Made by a program: the position numbers and the translations under genes
Assembly (NCBI RefSeq): GCF_053078305.1
Contig: NZ_CP166879.1
Length of the DNA stretch: 64,000 bases
Strand: one strand, 5' to 3'
Shown here: positions 17,131-19,047 of the stretch, one piece after another
How the letters are laid out: the number at the start of each line of letters is the position of its first letter
Position numbering within the stretch: the stretch's first letter is position 1
The notes under the pieces: model-generated
What the model was told of the DNA's origin: nothing
The model's input: the letters and a program-made list of their open reading frames with translations, nothing else
Database searches by the model: none

Positions 17131-18017
17131 TGTATTTTGTCGACAACAATTCAGGTGTGACCGATATGCCACCACTGGCCCCCTCTCAGGGTACGCAGGT
17201 TAAATGGTTTACTGAAGGTGACGGACGCAAAGGGATCAGCCATATCGGTCAGGACTGGCTGAACATCGTGCAGGCAGAGCTGCTTGCCATTCTGACAGAA
17301 GGAAAGGTTCAGCCGGATAAGGCAAAACTGAACCAGCTGGTGACAGCCATTAAGGCAATCATTGCAGCAAACGCATACAGCCGGAAAAACAACCTTAAGG
17401 AGATTGCGGATGCAGGTGCAGAAGCACAGGCTGCTGCCCGCCGTCATCTGGGGCTGGGAGGATTATCAGGAAAAGACAGTCTGGCTGCTGCTGATGTGGG
17501 AGCACTGGAGAAATCCCGGAATTTTGACGATGTACCGGATAAACCGACGGCCCGCCTGAATCTTGATGTTTACAGTAAGGGAGAAGGCGATGAGCGTTAT
17601 CTGCGCAGGGACCAGAATGGCGCGGATATCCCGGACAAAGGAACCTTTATCGATAACCTCGGTTTACGGGAAACGGTAAATAAGGCTGCTGATGCCCTGC
17701 CATCGGGTGGAACCGCCGTGGCAGCGAATAAACTCGCCACCCCAGTAAATATTAATGGCGTTCCTTTCGACGGAACGCAGGATATCAATATTACATCGGG
17801 GATGACGCAGTCTGTGGCTGACTCACGTTATGTTCAAAGCATTCGAAGAGGTTCAAGGTCAACGATTGGAATGCAATATAATATTTTTGAAGTTCCTGAC
17901 GGATGCGTACTTACAGGGCTTGATGTCGCTGGTGATGGTAATGCAACGGTAACCGCATATTATCGCCCTGTTCAGTTTCTGATAAATGGTTCGTGGAAAA
18001 CAGCTTCCAGCGCATAA
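17130..18017 (+). CDS. Tail fibre protein S (constant N-part plus variable C-terminal cassette Sv, current orientation)
   Basis: 295-aa ORF; its C-terminal third lies inside the invertible segment and the IR-encoded peptide AANKLATPVNINGVPFDGTQDINI is shared with the inverted cassette. Confidence 0.8.
   Translation: MYFVDNNSGVTDMPPLAPSQGTQVKWFTEGDGRKGISHIGQDWLNIVQAELLAILTEGKVQPDKAKLNQLVTAIKAIIAANAYSRKNNLKEIADAGAEAQAAARRHLGLGGLSGKDSLAAADVGALEKSRNFDDVPDKPTARLNLDVYSKGEGDERYLRRDQNGADIPDKGTFIDNLGLRETVNKAADALPSGGTAVAANKLATPVNINGVPFDGTQDINITSGMTQSVADSRYVQSIRRGSRSTIGMQYNIFEVPDGCVLTGLDVAGDGNATVTAYYRPVQFLINGSWKTASSA
17647..17672. other. gix-like recombination site (left), crossover dinucleotide at 17659-17660
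   Basis: Read toward the segment: TTCCCGTAAACC-GA-GGTTATCGATAA, matching the Hin/Gin hix/gix pattern as recalled. Confidence 0.6.
17655..17788. repeat. Inverted repeat, left arm (134 bp, perfect match to 18906..19039)
   Basis: Reverse complement of 18906-19039 is identical base for base; similarity continues inward at lower identity. Confidence 0.9.
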
Positions 18018-18096
18018 AAGTGCAGTAGTTCAAAAAACAGATTATCTGAATAAATATATGATGATTTTGTCTTTTCAACAAAAACAAGGTGAAATA

Positions 18097-18618
18097 ATGG
18101 AGCTTATTAACGTAAAACGATATTACCCGGAACACAAACCCTATGGTGAGGATGTTCAGTATTTCCAGAGTGAGGACGGAAGGGATTTTTATGAATCTCT
18201 CCCGCTTTTCACAAAGAAATACAAACTCTGTATTTCGCCTGTAACGGGTATTATCTGCTCTGTTGCTGAAGATGTCTCTGCTTTATATCCGGCAGGTTTT
18301 ACTGTTGTTGAAGTGGACGAACTGCCGGAAGGTGTGGATATTGACGGTAACTGGCAGTTTTCTGATGGCCTGATATCAAAGGTGCCGGTAAACTGGAAGA
18401 CGGTTGCTGAAAAGCGCCGCTCATCGCTGCTCCAGGAAGCCAACGAAACTGTGGATGACTGGAAAACGGAATTAAAACTGGACATGATTAGCGATGAAAA
18501 TAAATTACAGCTGACGCGCTGGATGGCGTATATCCGACAGCTTAAAGAAATGCACTTTAATGATATTGCCAGTGAGGGGCATTACCAGGCGATTCCCTGG
18601 CCGGAAAAACCGGAATAA
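18097..18618 (+). CDS. Tail fibre assembly protein (Tfa / Mu U-like)
   Basis: About 173 aa from the ATG at 18097 (SD AAGGTGA); position after the fibre gene. Confidence 0.75.
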   Translation: MELINVKRYYPEHKPYGEDVQYFQSEDGRDFYESLPLFTKKYKLCISPVTGIICSVAEDVSALYPAGFTVVEVDELPEGVDIDGNWQFSDGLISKVPVNWKTVAEKRRSSLLQEANETVDDWKTELKLDMISDENKLQLTRWMAYIRQLKEMHFNDIASEGHYQAIPWPEKPE

Positions 18619-18622
18619 TTCA

Positions 18623-18646
18623 GAGGGTGCATTCAGCACCCTTTTC
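18623..18646. terminator. Bidirectional hairpin terminator between convergent tfa and S'v
   Basis: GGGTGC-ATTCA-GCACCC followed by TTTT. Confidence 0.5.
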
Positions 18647-18652
18647 TGTGGT

Positions 18653-19033
18653 TTACACTGAACTTACCGTTCTCCAGGCATTATTAATATAAATCTGAAC
18701 CGGGCGATAATAGACCCCACCGATATTGTCCGCAGACCGGGAGCCGGTTTCCTGCACGTTAATACCGGAAAGCATACAACCGGAAGGTGCGCTGTAATTC
18801 CATGACATTTCATTGCCTCCGGGTGAATGATAGCTCTGTGCTCCAAGCTGAACATTCTGTACATACCGGCCATCTGCGGTTGACTGCGTCATTCCTGACG
18901 TGATGTTGATATCCTGCGTTCCGTCGAAAGGAACGCCATTAATATTTACTGGGGTGGCGAGTTTATTCGCTGCCACGGCGGTTCCACCCGATGGCAGGGC
19001 ATCAGCAGCCTTATTTACCGTTTCCCGTAAACC
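18653..19033 (-). CDS. Alternative tail-fibre C-terminal cassette S'v (inverted; promoterless until inversion)
   Basis: Minus-strand frame opens in the right IR with the same peptide as S, then diverges into a C-terminus homologous to but distinct from Sv. Confidence 0.7.
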   Translation of the reverse strand, partial: GLRETVNKAADALPSGGTAVAANKLATPVNINGVPFDGTQDINITSGMTQSTADGRYVQNVQLGAQSYHSPGGNEMSWNYSAPSGCMLSGINVQETGSRSADNIGGVYYRPVQIYINNAWRTVSSV

Positions 19034-19039
19034 GAGGTT
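18906..19039. repeat. Inverted repeat, right arm
   Basis: Perfect reverse-complement match to 17655-17788. Confidence 0.9.
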
Positions 19040-19047
19040 TCAGGGAT
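19022..19047. other. gix-like recombination site (right), crossover at 19034-19035
   Basis: TTCCCGTAAACC-GA-GGTTTCAGGGAT. Confidence 0.6.

What the first reader, a model, noticed from the sequence alone, without database searches (positions are those of the whole stretch)
17647..19047. Minimal Gin-type invertible tail-fibre segment with only one Tfa chaperone for two alternative fibre C-termini
Perfect 134-bp inverted repeats carry gix/hix-like sites (TTCCCGTAAACC-GA-GGTTT...) at their outer edges, and gin is adjacent. The segment holds Sv, one tfa and an inverted S'v, whereas Mu and P1 carry a chaperone for each orientation (U and U'). After inversion tfa would be antisense to late transcription. 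The two C-terminal cassettes are homologous to each other, so they may share one chaperone or rely on the lambdoid Tfa (37334-38005) in trans.
Basis: partly seen in the sequence, partly recalled or inferred. Interest (0 to 1): 0.6.

Follow-up and report, generated by a model that had tools for sequence, protein, structure and literature searches.

The report
One-chaperone invertible phage tail-fibre switch
This is a working DNA flip-switch in a Mu-like prophage of E. coli that swaps the tip of the tail fibre to change host range. Unlike the textbook switches of Mu, P1 and e14, it carries one fibre-folding chaperone gene for both tips, and in most sequenced genomes that gene points against the fibre operon.

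Summary
A perfect 134-bp inverted repeat (17655-17788 / 18906-19039) carries Mu-like gix sites at its outer edges. It flanks Sv, one tfa and an inverted S'v, next to an intact gin that is 74% identical to Mu Gin.

- **Fibres:** both orientations give in-frame fibres of 295 and 303 aa.
- **Element:** it belongs to the Sp18 family of Mu-like prophages (E. coli O157 Sakai type), whose invertible region has been noted in print but not dissected.
- **Census:** among 5,426 complete E. coli genomes, 15 have the window's orientation and 182 the flipped one, where tfa is antisense. Related prophages, including one pair sharing several identical proteins, occur in both states.
- **No second chaperone:** only 34 nt separate the tfa and S'v stops, and the antisense ORF inside tfa is not conserved.
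- **S'v is functional:** dN/dS is about 0.1.
- **Shared chaperone:** both tips belong to the Mu-S tip class, which elsewhere always pairs with this Tfa N-domain class. Tfa alleles also combine freely with cassette alleles.

How tfa is expressed in the flipped state is unresolved. An unusual 79-nt spacer uncouples it from Sv, but no significant promoter was found there. Erwinia phage ENT90 has the same one-chaperone layout, with a predicted late promoter of its own.

Verdict: a real new variant of a known kind, of moderate interest.

The parts
17130..17660 (+). Sc: constant N-terminal part of the tail fibre (aa 1-177), which attaches to the baseplate
   Evidence: 44% identical to Mu S aa 1-191 and matches PDB 5YVQ_A / 8JU3_A. 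It follows the gp47 and gp48/YmfQ baseplate genes.
17647..17672 (.). Left gix-like crossover site, TTATCGATAACC-TC-GGTTTACGGGAA, with core TC at 17659-17660
   Evidence: Direct comparison with Mu gixL. It lies at the same codon position of the fibre: LGLRETVN here, LGLQETVN in Mu.
17655..17788 (.). Left arm of the perfect 134-bp inverted repeat; encodes fibre aa 176-220
17661..18017 (+). Sv cassette: the C-terminal 118 aa of the fibre expressed in the window's orientation (295-aa fibre)
   Evidence: In-frame translation. The tip is homologous to Mu S aa 436-504.
18018..18096 (+). 79-nt A+T-rich spacer between the Sv stop and the tfa start. The gap is 1-2 nt in Mu and e14 and 10-14 nt in three other loci measured.
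   Evidence: No significant promoter and no structured RNA were found.
18097..18618 (+). tfa: the only tail-fibre assembly chaperone gene in the segment (173 aa)
   Evidence: Pfam Caudo_TAP PF02413, 1.4e-18. phrog_136, 5.9e-58. Mu U structure 5YVQ_B, 1.9e-15. 28-30% identical to Mu U and U'.
18622..18644 (.). G+C-rich hairpin in the 34-nt gap between the converging tfa and S'v stops; a probable bidirectional terminator
   Evidence: sequence read
18653..19033 (-). S'v cassette: the alternative C-terminal 126 aa, fused in frame to Sc after inversion (303-aa fibre)
   Evidence: Simulated inversion. dN/dS about 0.1 in the variable part. The full 303-aa fusion is annotated in flipped genomes.
18906..19039 (.). 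Right arm of the perfect 134-bp inverted repeat
19022..19047 (.). Right gix-like crossover site, TTCCCGTAAACC-GA-GGTTTCAGGGAT
19102..19662 (+). gin: serine DNA invertase (186 aa)
   Evidence: Pfam Resolvase 6.3e-51 plus HTH_7 3e-14. 74% identical to Mu Gin and 72% to e14 PinE. Ser9 lies in the motif YIRVSTNDQ.

Best explanation
**What it is.** This is the host-range switch of an Sp18-type Mu-like prophage, a miniature version of the Mu G segment.

**How the switch works.** Gin, probably helped by host Fis and possibly by other Pin-family invertases in the cell, exchanges strands at the TC/GA core of the two gix-like sites. These sites lie inside the fibre gene. The constant part Sc (aa 1-177) is therefore joined in frame either to Sv (295-aa fibre) or to S'v (303-aa fibre). 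This step follows directly from the sequence and from natural variants.

**Why one chaperone is enough (inferred).** The two tips belong to the same structural class, the Mu-S tip, which ends in YYRPVQ..IN..W. One Tfa whose N-domain recognises that class can fold both, so the second chaperone gene of the Mu, P1 and e14 layout is unnecessary and absent.

**How tfa is expressed (inferred, weakest step).** tfa lies between the cassettes, detached from Sv by a 79-nt spacer and followed by a hairpin that can stop transcription from either side. It is most likely expressed on its own, whatever the orientation, rather than only by read-through from the late fibre operon.
For: **Switch**
- Perfect IR and Mu-like gix sites at the homologous codon of the fibre.
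- Intact Gin.
- In-frame fusions in both states.
- Both orientations occur in related prophages: O157 ECP19-198 against 380-94, which share the Gin, Tfa, YmfQ and gp47 accessions, and CP55_Sichuan against JNEC-KY203, which share the gp47, YmfQ, Tfa and DUF6645 accessions.
- Census of complete E. coli genomes: 15 in the (+) state and 182 in the (-) state.
- In the O157 pair the exchange maps to a 13-nt interval that contains the core.

**Single chaperone**
- There is one Caudo_TAP ORF, with 34 nt between the tfa and S'v stops. The layout is the same in all 8 loci compared, which span three divergent allele sets.
- The 98-aa antisense ORF inside tfa is lost in the type-2 allele.

**Both cassettes functional**
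- S'v has dN/dS of 0.09-0.12.

**Shared-client logic**
- Every fibre followed by a Tfa with this N-domain ends in the same tip motif: Mu S/U, Mu S'/U', E. coli L027, Salmonella L030 and Pectobacterium L031.
- Cassettes of other tip classes pair with other Tfa N-domains.
- The L027 fibre tip is S'v-like (58% over 83 aa) and is followed 14 nt later by a Tfa 58% identical to this one.
- Tfa type 1 occurs with Sv types A and B and with S'v types alpha and beta. Its N-domain is the conserved half: 78% identity against 48% for the C-domain.

**Uncoupling**
- The spacer is 79-121 nt in all single-Tfa loci. It is 1-2 nt in Mu and e14 and 10-14 nt in L027, L030 and L031.

**Precedent**
- Erwinia phage ENT90 has the same layout: cassette, 106-nt spacer, tfa, hairpin, inverted cassette.
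- Its published record is in the tfa-antisense state.
- Its spacer holds a TGTTGT-N12-ACAACA dyad 87 nt before the tfa ATG. That is the geometry of the TGT-N12-ACA box upstream of the sheath gene in two related P2-like loci.

**Viability of the element**
- Sp18 DNA is packaged efficiently (PMC2669165).
Against: - No promoter could be shown in the window's spacer. The sigma-70 scan finds nothing at 9/12 or better, and only a weak -10 (TATGAT) with a poor -35 appears at 8/12.
- There is no Mu C-box in the spacer.
- Scored against the Sp18-type late-promoter consensus derived here (CCGCAAARCC-N20-TAYGCT), the spacer reaches 10/16, an ordinary value shared by hundreds of sites.
- Nothing here tests Tfa-fibre binding or Tfa dependence.
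- The orientation census counts assemblies of largely clonal STEC lineages, not independent events.
- No read-level data exist for this strain.
- The Fis enhancer could not be confirmed.
Confidence: 0.6

Rival explanations
1. Only Sv needs the resident Tfa. The S' fibre folds without a chaperone, or it borrows a Tfa-like protein made by co-resident prophages, for example the lambdoid protein at 37334-38005. On this view the antisense position of tfa in the flipped state does not matter.
For: - tfa is co-oriented with Sv and not with S'v.
- No promoter was found for orientation-independent expression.
- The lambdoid protein shares the fibre-binding N-domain class over aa 1-98 (phrog_136, 4.5e-33), and its own fibre carries the YYRPLQ tip motif.
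- STEC hosts carry many lambdoid prophages (PMC2669165).
Against: - An S'v-type tip in another E. coli Mu-like prophage (L027) is directly followed by a Tfa of this family, and all tips of this class seen here have one.
- PHROG family matches give the lambdoid protein a different C-terminal region instead of the Caudo_TAP-type one.
- The lambdoid protein would be made only if that prophage were induced at the same time.
- A phage that depends on a foreign helper in the orientation found in 92% of genomes seems fragile.
Confidence: 0.2
2. The flipped state is an OFF state. Without co-transcribed Tfa the S' fibre misfolds, so the inversion toggles infectivity on and off rather than switching between two host ranges.
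For: - tfa is antisense in that state, and the late transcript would end at the hairpin after S'v.
- No independent promoter was shown.
Against: - S'v is under strong purifying selection (dN/dS about 0.1) and exists as distinct alpha and beta alleles, as receptor-binding tips do.
- 182 of 197 classified genomes are in this state.
- ENT90, deposited as a complete phage genome, is recorded in the equivalent state.
Confidence: 0.1
3. The segment is a decayed remnant of a two-chaperone segment in a defective prophage, and no longer functions.
For: - PGAP often fails to call the full fibre in the (+) state and marks S'v as a pseudogene fragment.
- In type-B loci the spacer holds a relic of another fibre's 3' end.
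Against: - The ORFs are intact in every locus examined.
- The layout is conserved across allele sets that differ by 35-45%.
- All three coding parts are under purifying selection.
- Both orientations are present.
- Sp18 is predicted intact and its DNA is packaged (PMC2669165).
Confidence: 0.05

Closest known systems
Phage Mu G segment (S-U / U'-S', gin)
   Same: - The phage type and gene order match: gp47, gp48, fibre, invertible segment, gin, com/mom.
- Gin is 74% identical.
- The gix sites are nearly the same and lie at the same codon of the fibre.
- Sc is 44% identical to Mu S aa 1-191.
- The tip and the Tfa are homologous to Mu S 436-504 and to Mu U/U'.
   Different: - The segment is 1.4 kb rather than about 3 kb.
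- The fibre is 295 or 303 aa against 504 aa for Mu S; the long shaft of S is absent.
- There is one Tfa instead of two.
- tfa is separated from Sv by 79 nt instead of 2 nt.
- The IR is 134 bp rather than 34 bp.
- A 685-aa DUF6645 gene and further genes lie between gin and com.
Sp18 Mu-like prophage of E. coli O157:H7 Sakai and its relatives
   Same: - It is the same element family: the segment interior is about 99% identical, and gene order is the same from the baseplate genes to com/mom.
[quoted passage not shown]
   Different: - The window's Sc is visibly more diverged than the segment interior, which is nearly identical to O157.
- Its IR arms are perfectly homogenised, against 113/139 identical in O157.
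- It is in the minority (+) orientation.
e14 P segment of E. coli K-12 (stfP-tfaP / tfaE-stfE, pinE)
   Same: - The baseplate context is Mu-like (YmfQ/gp48).
- The fibres are short.
- The invertase is 72% identical and adjacent.
- Pin-family enzymes act in trans on such segments (PMC12529663).
   Different: - The e14 segment is 1.8 kb with two Tfa genes.
- Its two cassettes belong to different tip classes (ending ..NWIAIGY and ..NYIVRAA), each with its own Tfa N-domain.
Erwinia phage ENT90 (P2-like) invertible fibre segment
   Same: - The one-chaperone design is the same: cassette, 106-nt spacer, tfa, bidirectional hairpin, inverted cassette, invertase.
- Both cassettes are of one tip class.
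- The record is in the tfa-antisense state.
   Different: - The tail module is P2-type.
- The tip class (..IAIGC / ..ILIGN) and the Tfa N-domain class differ from those here.
- Its spacer carries a clear TGT-N12-ACA dyad, typical of P2-type late promoters. The window's spacer has no comparable element.

Membership tests
Gin/Hin/Cin/Pin DNA-invertase switch | Small serine recombinase (Resolvase catalytic domain with an N-terminal Ser nucleophile, plus a C-terminal HTH) encoded next to the segment | tested here: met
   Pfam Resolvase 6.3e-51 and HTH_7 3e-14. Ser9 lies in YIRVSTNDQ. 74% identical to Mu Gin.
Gin/Hin/Cin/Pin DNA-invertase switch | Two 26-bp crossover sites in inverted orientation with an identical 2-bp core | tested here: met
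   The sites are 17647-17672 and 19022-19047, with core TC/GA. The inner half-sites are identical, and the outer half-sites resemble Mu gix.
Gin/Hin/Cin/Pin DNA-invertase switch | Fis-bound recombinational enhancer inside the 5' part of the invertase gene | tested here: inconclusive
   A G-N13-C 15-mer with an A/T-rich centre is conserved at gin nt 94-108 in the window, Mu and e14. The position of a second site is not consistent.
Gin/Hin/Cin/Pin DNA-invertase switch | Both orientations occur in populations | tested here: met
   This was tested for the element family, not for this strain. 15 complete genomes are in the (+) state and 182 in the (-) state, and related prophages occur in both states.
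Mu G / P1 C / e14 P type fibre host-range segment | The crossover lies inside the fibre ORF and joins a constant N-terminal part in frame to alternative C-terminal parts | tested here: met
   The fusions are 295 aa and 303 aa. Both are annotated or intact in relatives.
Mu G / P1 C / e14 P type fibre host-range segment | One chaperone gene per cassette (U and U', or tfaP and tfaE) | tested here: not met
   There is a single Caudo_TAP ORF and 34 nt between the tfa and S'v stops. No conserved extra ORF exists on either strand.
Mu G / P1 C / e14 P type fibre host-range segment | The chaperone gene abuts its fibre gene, so the two are co-transcribed and coupled | tested here: not met
   The spacer is 79 nt here and 120-121 nt in type-B relatives. 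It is 2 nt in Mu, 1 nt in e14, and 10-14 nt in L027, L030 and L031.
Caudo_TAP tail-fibre assembly protein (Mu U-like) | Sequence membership: Pfam PF02413 and homology to the solved Mu U structure | tested here: met
   PF02413, 1.4e-18. 5YVQ_B, 1.9e-15, over aa 17-147. phrog_136, full length.
Caudo_TAP tail-fibre assembly protein (Mu U-like) | Binds the fibre tip and is required for its trimerisation | not testable with these tools
   Support is indirect only: this N-domain class co-occurs with the Y(Y/I)RPxQ..I..W tip class in five independent loci.

The most novel reading that the evidence does not exclude
One-chaperone invertible fibre modules may be a recurrent design with its own rule. When both alternative tips belong to one tip class, the second Tfa is lost. 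The remaining tfa is cut loose from the fibre operon and placed between the cassettes, before a bidirectional terminator. It is then driven by its own late promoter, so it is made in either orientation. The design would have arisen independently in a Mu-like lineage (Sp18 type) and a P2-like lineage (ENT90). It would mean that Tfa specificity is set by tip class, not by the receptor-binding surface.
Probability: 0.35. Interest if true: 0.55.

Novelty: new variant of a known kind. Interest (0 to 1): 0.42.

Why it matters
Invertible fibre segments are the classic example of programmed host-range switching. The accepted picture is that each alternative fibre brings its own chaperone.

A natural switch that runs on one chaperone has three consequences:
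- It shows that a Tfa can be generic for a tip class.
- It gives a compact 1.4-kb module for engineering phages or tailocins with two host ranges.
- It raises a concrete, testable question about how a gene inside an invertible segment is kept expressed in both orientations.

The element is also common. It occurs in about 200 of 5,426 complete E. coli genomes, many of them STEC, and standard annotation miscalls its fibre genes.

Tried and rejected
1. **A second chaperone hidden in the segment.** All ORFs of 45 aa or more on both strands were listed. The only candidate is a 98-aa S/T-rich ORF antisense to tfa, and it is absent from the type-2 tfa allele.
2. **Sigma-70 promoter for tfa.** None was found at the tool's threshold. 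A relaxed scan of the flipped sequence gives only 8/12 matches.
3. **Mu C-dependent late promoter in the spacer.** There is no CATAACCCC box. No 9-mer is shared between the PI, PP and Pmom regions.
4. **Sp18-type late-promoter consensus.** CCGCAAARCC-N20-TAYGCT was derived from O157 Plys and the window's PI. The spacer scores 10/16, which is ordinary. An apparent TTAT-N6-cAACCCC-N19-TATTAT element in type-B spacers also scores only 10/16. It is kept as a lead, not as evidence.
5. **Structured RNA in the spacer.** The fold z-score is -0.36, and there is no Rfam hit in the segment.
6. **Census of Gin neighbourhoods in representative genomes.** Most loci end at a contig edge beside the invertase, so only four were informative.
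7. **Mapping the crossover point in the CP55 / JNEC-KY203 pair.** The arms are identical for the first ~86 nt, so there is no resolution.
8. **Literature.** No paper found through the tools discusses the single chaperone. North et al. 2019 and North and Davidson 2021 are not held.
9. **Structure prediction of tip-Tfa complexes.** This was not attempted, because only single chains can be predicted and the fibre is a trimer.
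Full report
**1. What is in the sequence**

The window is E. coli chromosome. The region 50000-56000 (marC/ydeA/eamA) is 99.8% identical to strain TUM13936.

Bases 1 to about 24,200 are the right part of a Mu-like prophage. They run from portal, head, sheath and baseplate genes through fibre and gin to com and mom.

The fibre gene 17130-18017 follows the gp47 and gp48/YmfQ baseplate genes.

The inverted repeat is exact for 134 nt (17655-17788 against 18906-19039) and continues at lower identity to 182 nt.

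At its outer edges lie two 26-bp sites:
- left: TTATCGATAACC-TC-GGTTTACGGGAA
- right: TTCCCGTAAACC-GA-GGTTTCAGGGAT

They differ from Mu gixL and gixR at a few positions, keep the same TC/GA core, and cut the fibre gene at the same codon (LGLRETVN here, LGLQETVN in Mu).

gin (19102-19662) is intact. It has a Resolvase domain and an HTH_7 domain, carries Ser9, and is 74% identical to Mu Gin.

Simulating the inversion gives two in-frame fibres. Sc-Sv is 295 aa and Sc-S'v is 303 aa. They are identical to aa 220 and 44% identical after that.

Sc matches Mu S aa 1-191. The last ~65 aa match the Mu S tip, aa 436-504. The long shaft of Mu S is missing.

**2. One chaperone, not two**

tfa (18097-18618, 173 aa) is a Caudo_TAP protein homologous to Mu U and U' and to the solved U chain 5YVQ_B.

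Only 34 nt separate its stop from the converging S'v stop. That gap is filled by a G+C-rich hairpin at 18622-18644.

The only other sizeable ORF is a 98-aa reading frame antisense to tfa. It is absent from a divergent tfa allele, so it is not a gene.

Mu has U and U' and e14 has tfaP and tfaE. Two Tfa genes were also seen in:
- phages pro483, Cartapus and Chris1
- Salmonella and Pectobacterium prophages that carry close homologues of this very Tfa

**3. It is the Sp18 family, and it flips**

The segment interior is about 99% identical to the Mu-like prophage of E. coli O157:H7. Sc is visibly more diverged, so the cassette module moves as a unit.

I queried 5,426 complete E. coli genomes with the native and the simulated flipped left junction:

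| State | tfa relative to the fibre operon | Genomes |
|---|---|---|
| (+), as in the window | sense | 15 |
| (-), flipped | antisense | 182 |

Related prophages occur in both states:
- O157 ECP19-198 against 380-94, which share the Gin, Tfa, YmfQ and gp47 proteins
- CP55_Sichuan against JNEC-KY203, which share the gp47, YmfQ, Tfa and DUF6645 proteins

In O157 the two arms differ at 26 of 139 positions. Comparing the two O157 strains places the exchange in a 13-nt interval that contains the core. That fits site-specific recombination and not general recombination along the repeat.

The census counts assemblies from largely clonal lineages, so the 92:8 ratio is descriptive only.

**4. Are both cassettes used?**

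Eight loci fall into mosaic allele sets:

| Locus | Sv type | tfa type | S'v type |
|---|---|---|---|
| window and O157 | A | 1 | alpha |
| JNE141411 | A | 1 | beta |
| UTME-3 | B | 1 | beta |
| STEC2018-607, CP55_Sichuan, JNEC-KY203 | B | 2 | alpha |

Identities between types are 53-58% for Sv, 64% for tfa and about 80% for S'v.

The variable part of S'v has dN/dS of 0.09-0.12, for example 15 non-synonymous against 26 synonymous changes. S'v is therefore translated and under selection.

The same Tfa allele sits beside two very different Sv types and beside both S'v types.

**5. Why one chaperone can suffice**

In five independent loci, a fibre followed directly by a Tfa with this N-domain ends in the same tip motif. 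The N-domain reads MELxNVxRY...SEDGxDFYES...KKYKLCI, and the tip motif is Y(Y/F/I)(R/K)(P/Q)xQ..(I/V)..W. The loci are:
- Mu S/U
- Mu S'/U'
- an E. coli Mu-like prophage without invertase (L027)
- Salmonella L030
- Pectobacterium L031

Cassettes that end in ..WIAIGY or ..NYIVRAA are followed by Tfa proteins with unrelated N-domains.

This agrees with the published view, recalled from North et al. 2019 and not re-read here, that the Tfa N-domain binds the fibre C-terminus.

Both window cassettes carry the motif.

The L027 tip is S'v-like (58% over 83 aa) and has its Tfa 14 nt downstream (58% identical to the window's). S'v-type tips are therefore Tfa clients elsewhere.

Within the Sp18 family the Tfa N-domain is the conserved half, at 78% against 48% for the C-domain.

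In the two-Tfa segments of e14, Salmonella and Pectobacterium, the two cassettes belong to different tip classes.

The simplest reading is that a second chaperone is needed only when the tips differ in class.

**6. The open step: expression in the flipped state**

After inversion tfa faces the late operon, and the late transcript would meet the hairpin just after S'v.

In all eight single-Tfa loci tfa is separated from Sv by 79-121 nt. The gap is 1-2 nt in Mu and e14 and 10-14 nt in L027, L030 and L031.

The two spacer types are homologous but diverged. The longer one also holds a relic of another fibre's 3' end.

I could not show a promoter:
- There is no sigma-70 match at threshold.
- Only 8/12 matches appear in a relaxed scan.
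- There is no Mu C-box.
- Against a late-promoter consensus derived from Sp18 Plys and PI (CCGCAAARCC-N20-TAYGCT), the spacer scores 10/16, like hundreds of other sites.

Autonomous expression is therefore inferred from layout alone.

**7. An independent precedent**

Erwinia phage ENT90 (P2-like) has the same module: cassette, 106-nt spacer, one tfa (157 aa), bidirectional hairpin, inverted cassette and invertase.

Both of its cassettes are of one tip class.

The published record has H fused to the distal cassette, with tfa antisense.

Its spacer holds a TGTTGT-N12-ACAACA dyad 87 nt before the tfa ATG. TGT-N12-ACA is the box of P2-type late promoters (from memory). I found it 90-94 nt before the sheath gene in Cartapus and in a Salmonella P2-like prophage, and also just after the invertase in Pseudocitrobacter L017, where the sheath start is uncertain.

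The chance of the basic box falling in a 106-nt spacer is about 0.03, and lower for the extended dyad.

Intermediate layouts also exist:
- one full Tfa plus a 57- or 76-aa mini-Tfa (Yersinia YenM_201.16 and Pseudocitrobacter L017)
- no Tfa at all, with tail-collar fibres (Cedecea L013)

**8. Verdict**

It is a new variant of a known kind. The element family has been in databases since 2001, but its one-chaperone logic has apparently not been described in any paper I could search.

- **Shown:** the structure, the natural inversion, the absence of a second chaperone, and purifying selection on both cassettes.
- **Inferred:** the shared chaperone (moderately supported) and orientation-independent tfa expression (supported only by layout and by the ENT90 analogy).

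Noticed in passing
window 24150-24400; lambdoid genes 24388-38005: The Mu-like prophage's mom gene ends at 24150. About 240 nt later a lambdoid tail terminator gene begins, followed by major tail, tape measure, J, stf and tfa-like genes. The Mu-like phage therefore seems to have transposed into a lambdoid prophage. Two Stx phage records are likewise annotated with an 'inserted Bacteriophage Mu-like phage'.
   Followed up: partly
window 19753-21810: A 685-aa gene of unknown function (DUF6645, phrog_143) sits between gin and com/mom, where Mu has nothing. It is conserved in every Sp18-like locus examined.
   Followed up: no
window 37334-38005: The lambdoid 'Tfa' is a hybrid. Its first ~98 aa are the same N-domain class as the Mu-like Tfa (phrog_136), but PHROG family matches give it a different C-terminal region. 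The fibre upstream (35559-37292) carries the YYRPLQ tip motif about 40 aa before its end.
   Followed up: partly
window 35129-35287: An Rfam sok antitoxin RNA (hok/sok-type) lies between the lambdoid J gene and the side tail fibre gene (63.5 bits against a gathering score of 59).
   Followed up: no
window 47657-47872: An Rfam STnc560 Hfq-binding sRNA, full length at 276 bits, lies in the chromosomal part.
   Followed up: no
L001 3926-4813; L022; L023: In genomes with the (+) orientation, RefSeq annotation does not call the intact 295-aa Sc-Sv fibre. It lists a 67-aa 'tail fiber protein' fragment plus a spurious opposite-strand ORF, and marks S'v as a pseudogene. In (-) genomes the 303-aa fusion is called 'hypothetical protein' in one record and 'phage tail protein' in another.
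   Followed up: yes
window 17655-17788 / 18906-19039 against L001: The window's repeat arms are identical over 134 nt, whereas the same arms in O157 ECP19-198 match at only 113 of 139 positions. The arms in this strain therefore appear to have been homogenised, presumably by gene conversion.
   Followed up: partly
L023-L026, Sv-tfa spacer (type B): Just after the type-B Sv stop, the spacer contains ..INGSWRTAGSA*, the relic of another (type-A-like) fibre C-terminus. This is a scar of cassette replacement.
   Followed up: partly
window 3640-3675; L040 4505-4546: The regions upstream of the protease gene I (window) and of the lysozyme gene (O157 Sp18) share CCGCAAA(A/G)CC-N20-TA(T/C)GCT. This is a candidate late-promoter consensus for Sp18-type phages and differs from Mu's CATAACCCC box. 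No equivalent was found upstream of com or inside the N gene.
   Followed up: partly
L039 388-411 (Erwinia phage ENT90): A TGTTGT-N12-ACAACA dyad lies 87 nt upstream of ENT90's single tfa, inside its invertible segment. It is a predicted P2-type late promoter. The ENT90 record also repeats the segment at both ends of the 'circular' sequence.
   Followed up: partly
L040 11697-11777 against window 2913-3032: RefSeq annotates a 'tRNA-OTHER' between the head morphogenesis genes F and G of O157 Sp18. ARAGORN finds no tRNA anywhere in the window.
   Followed up: no
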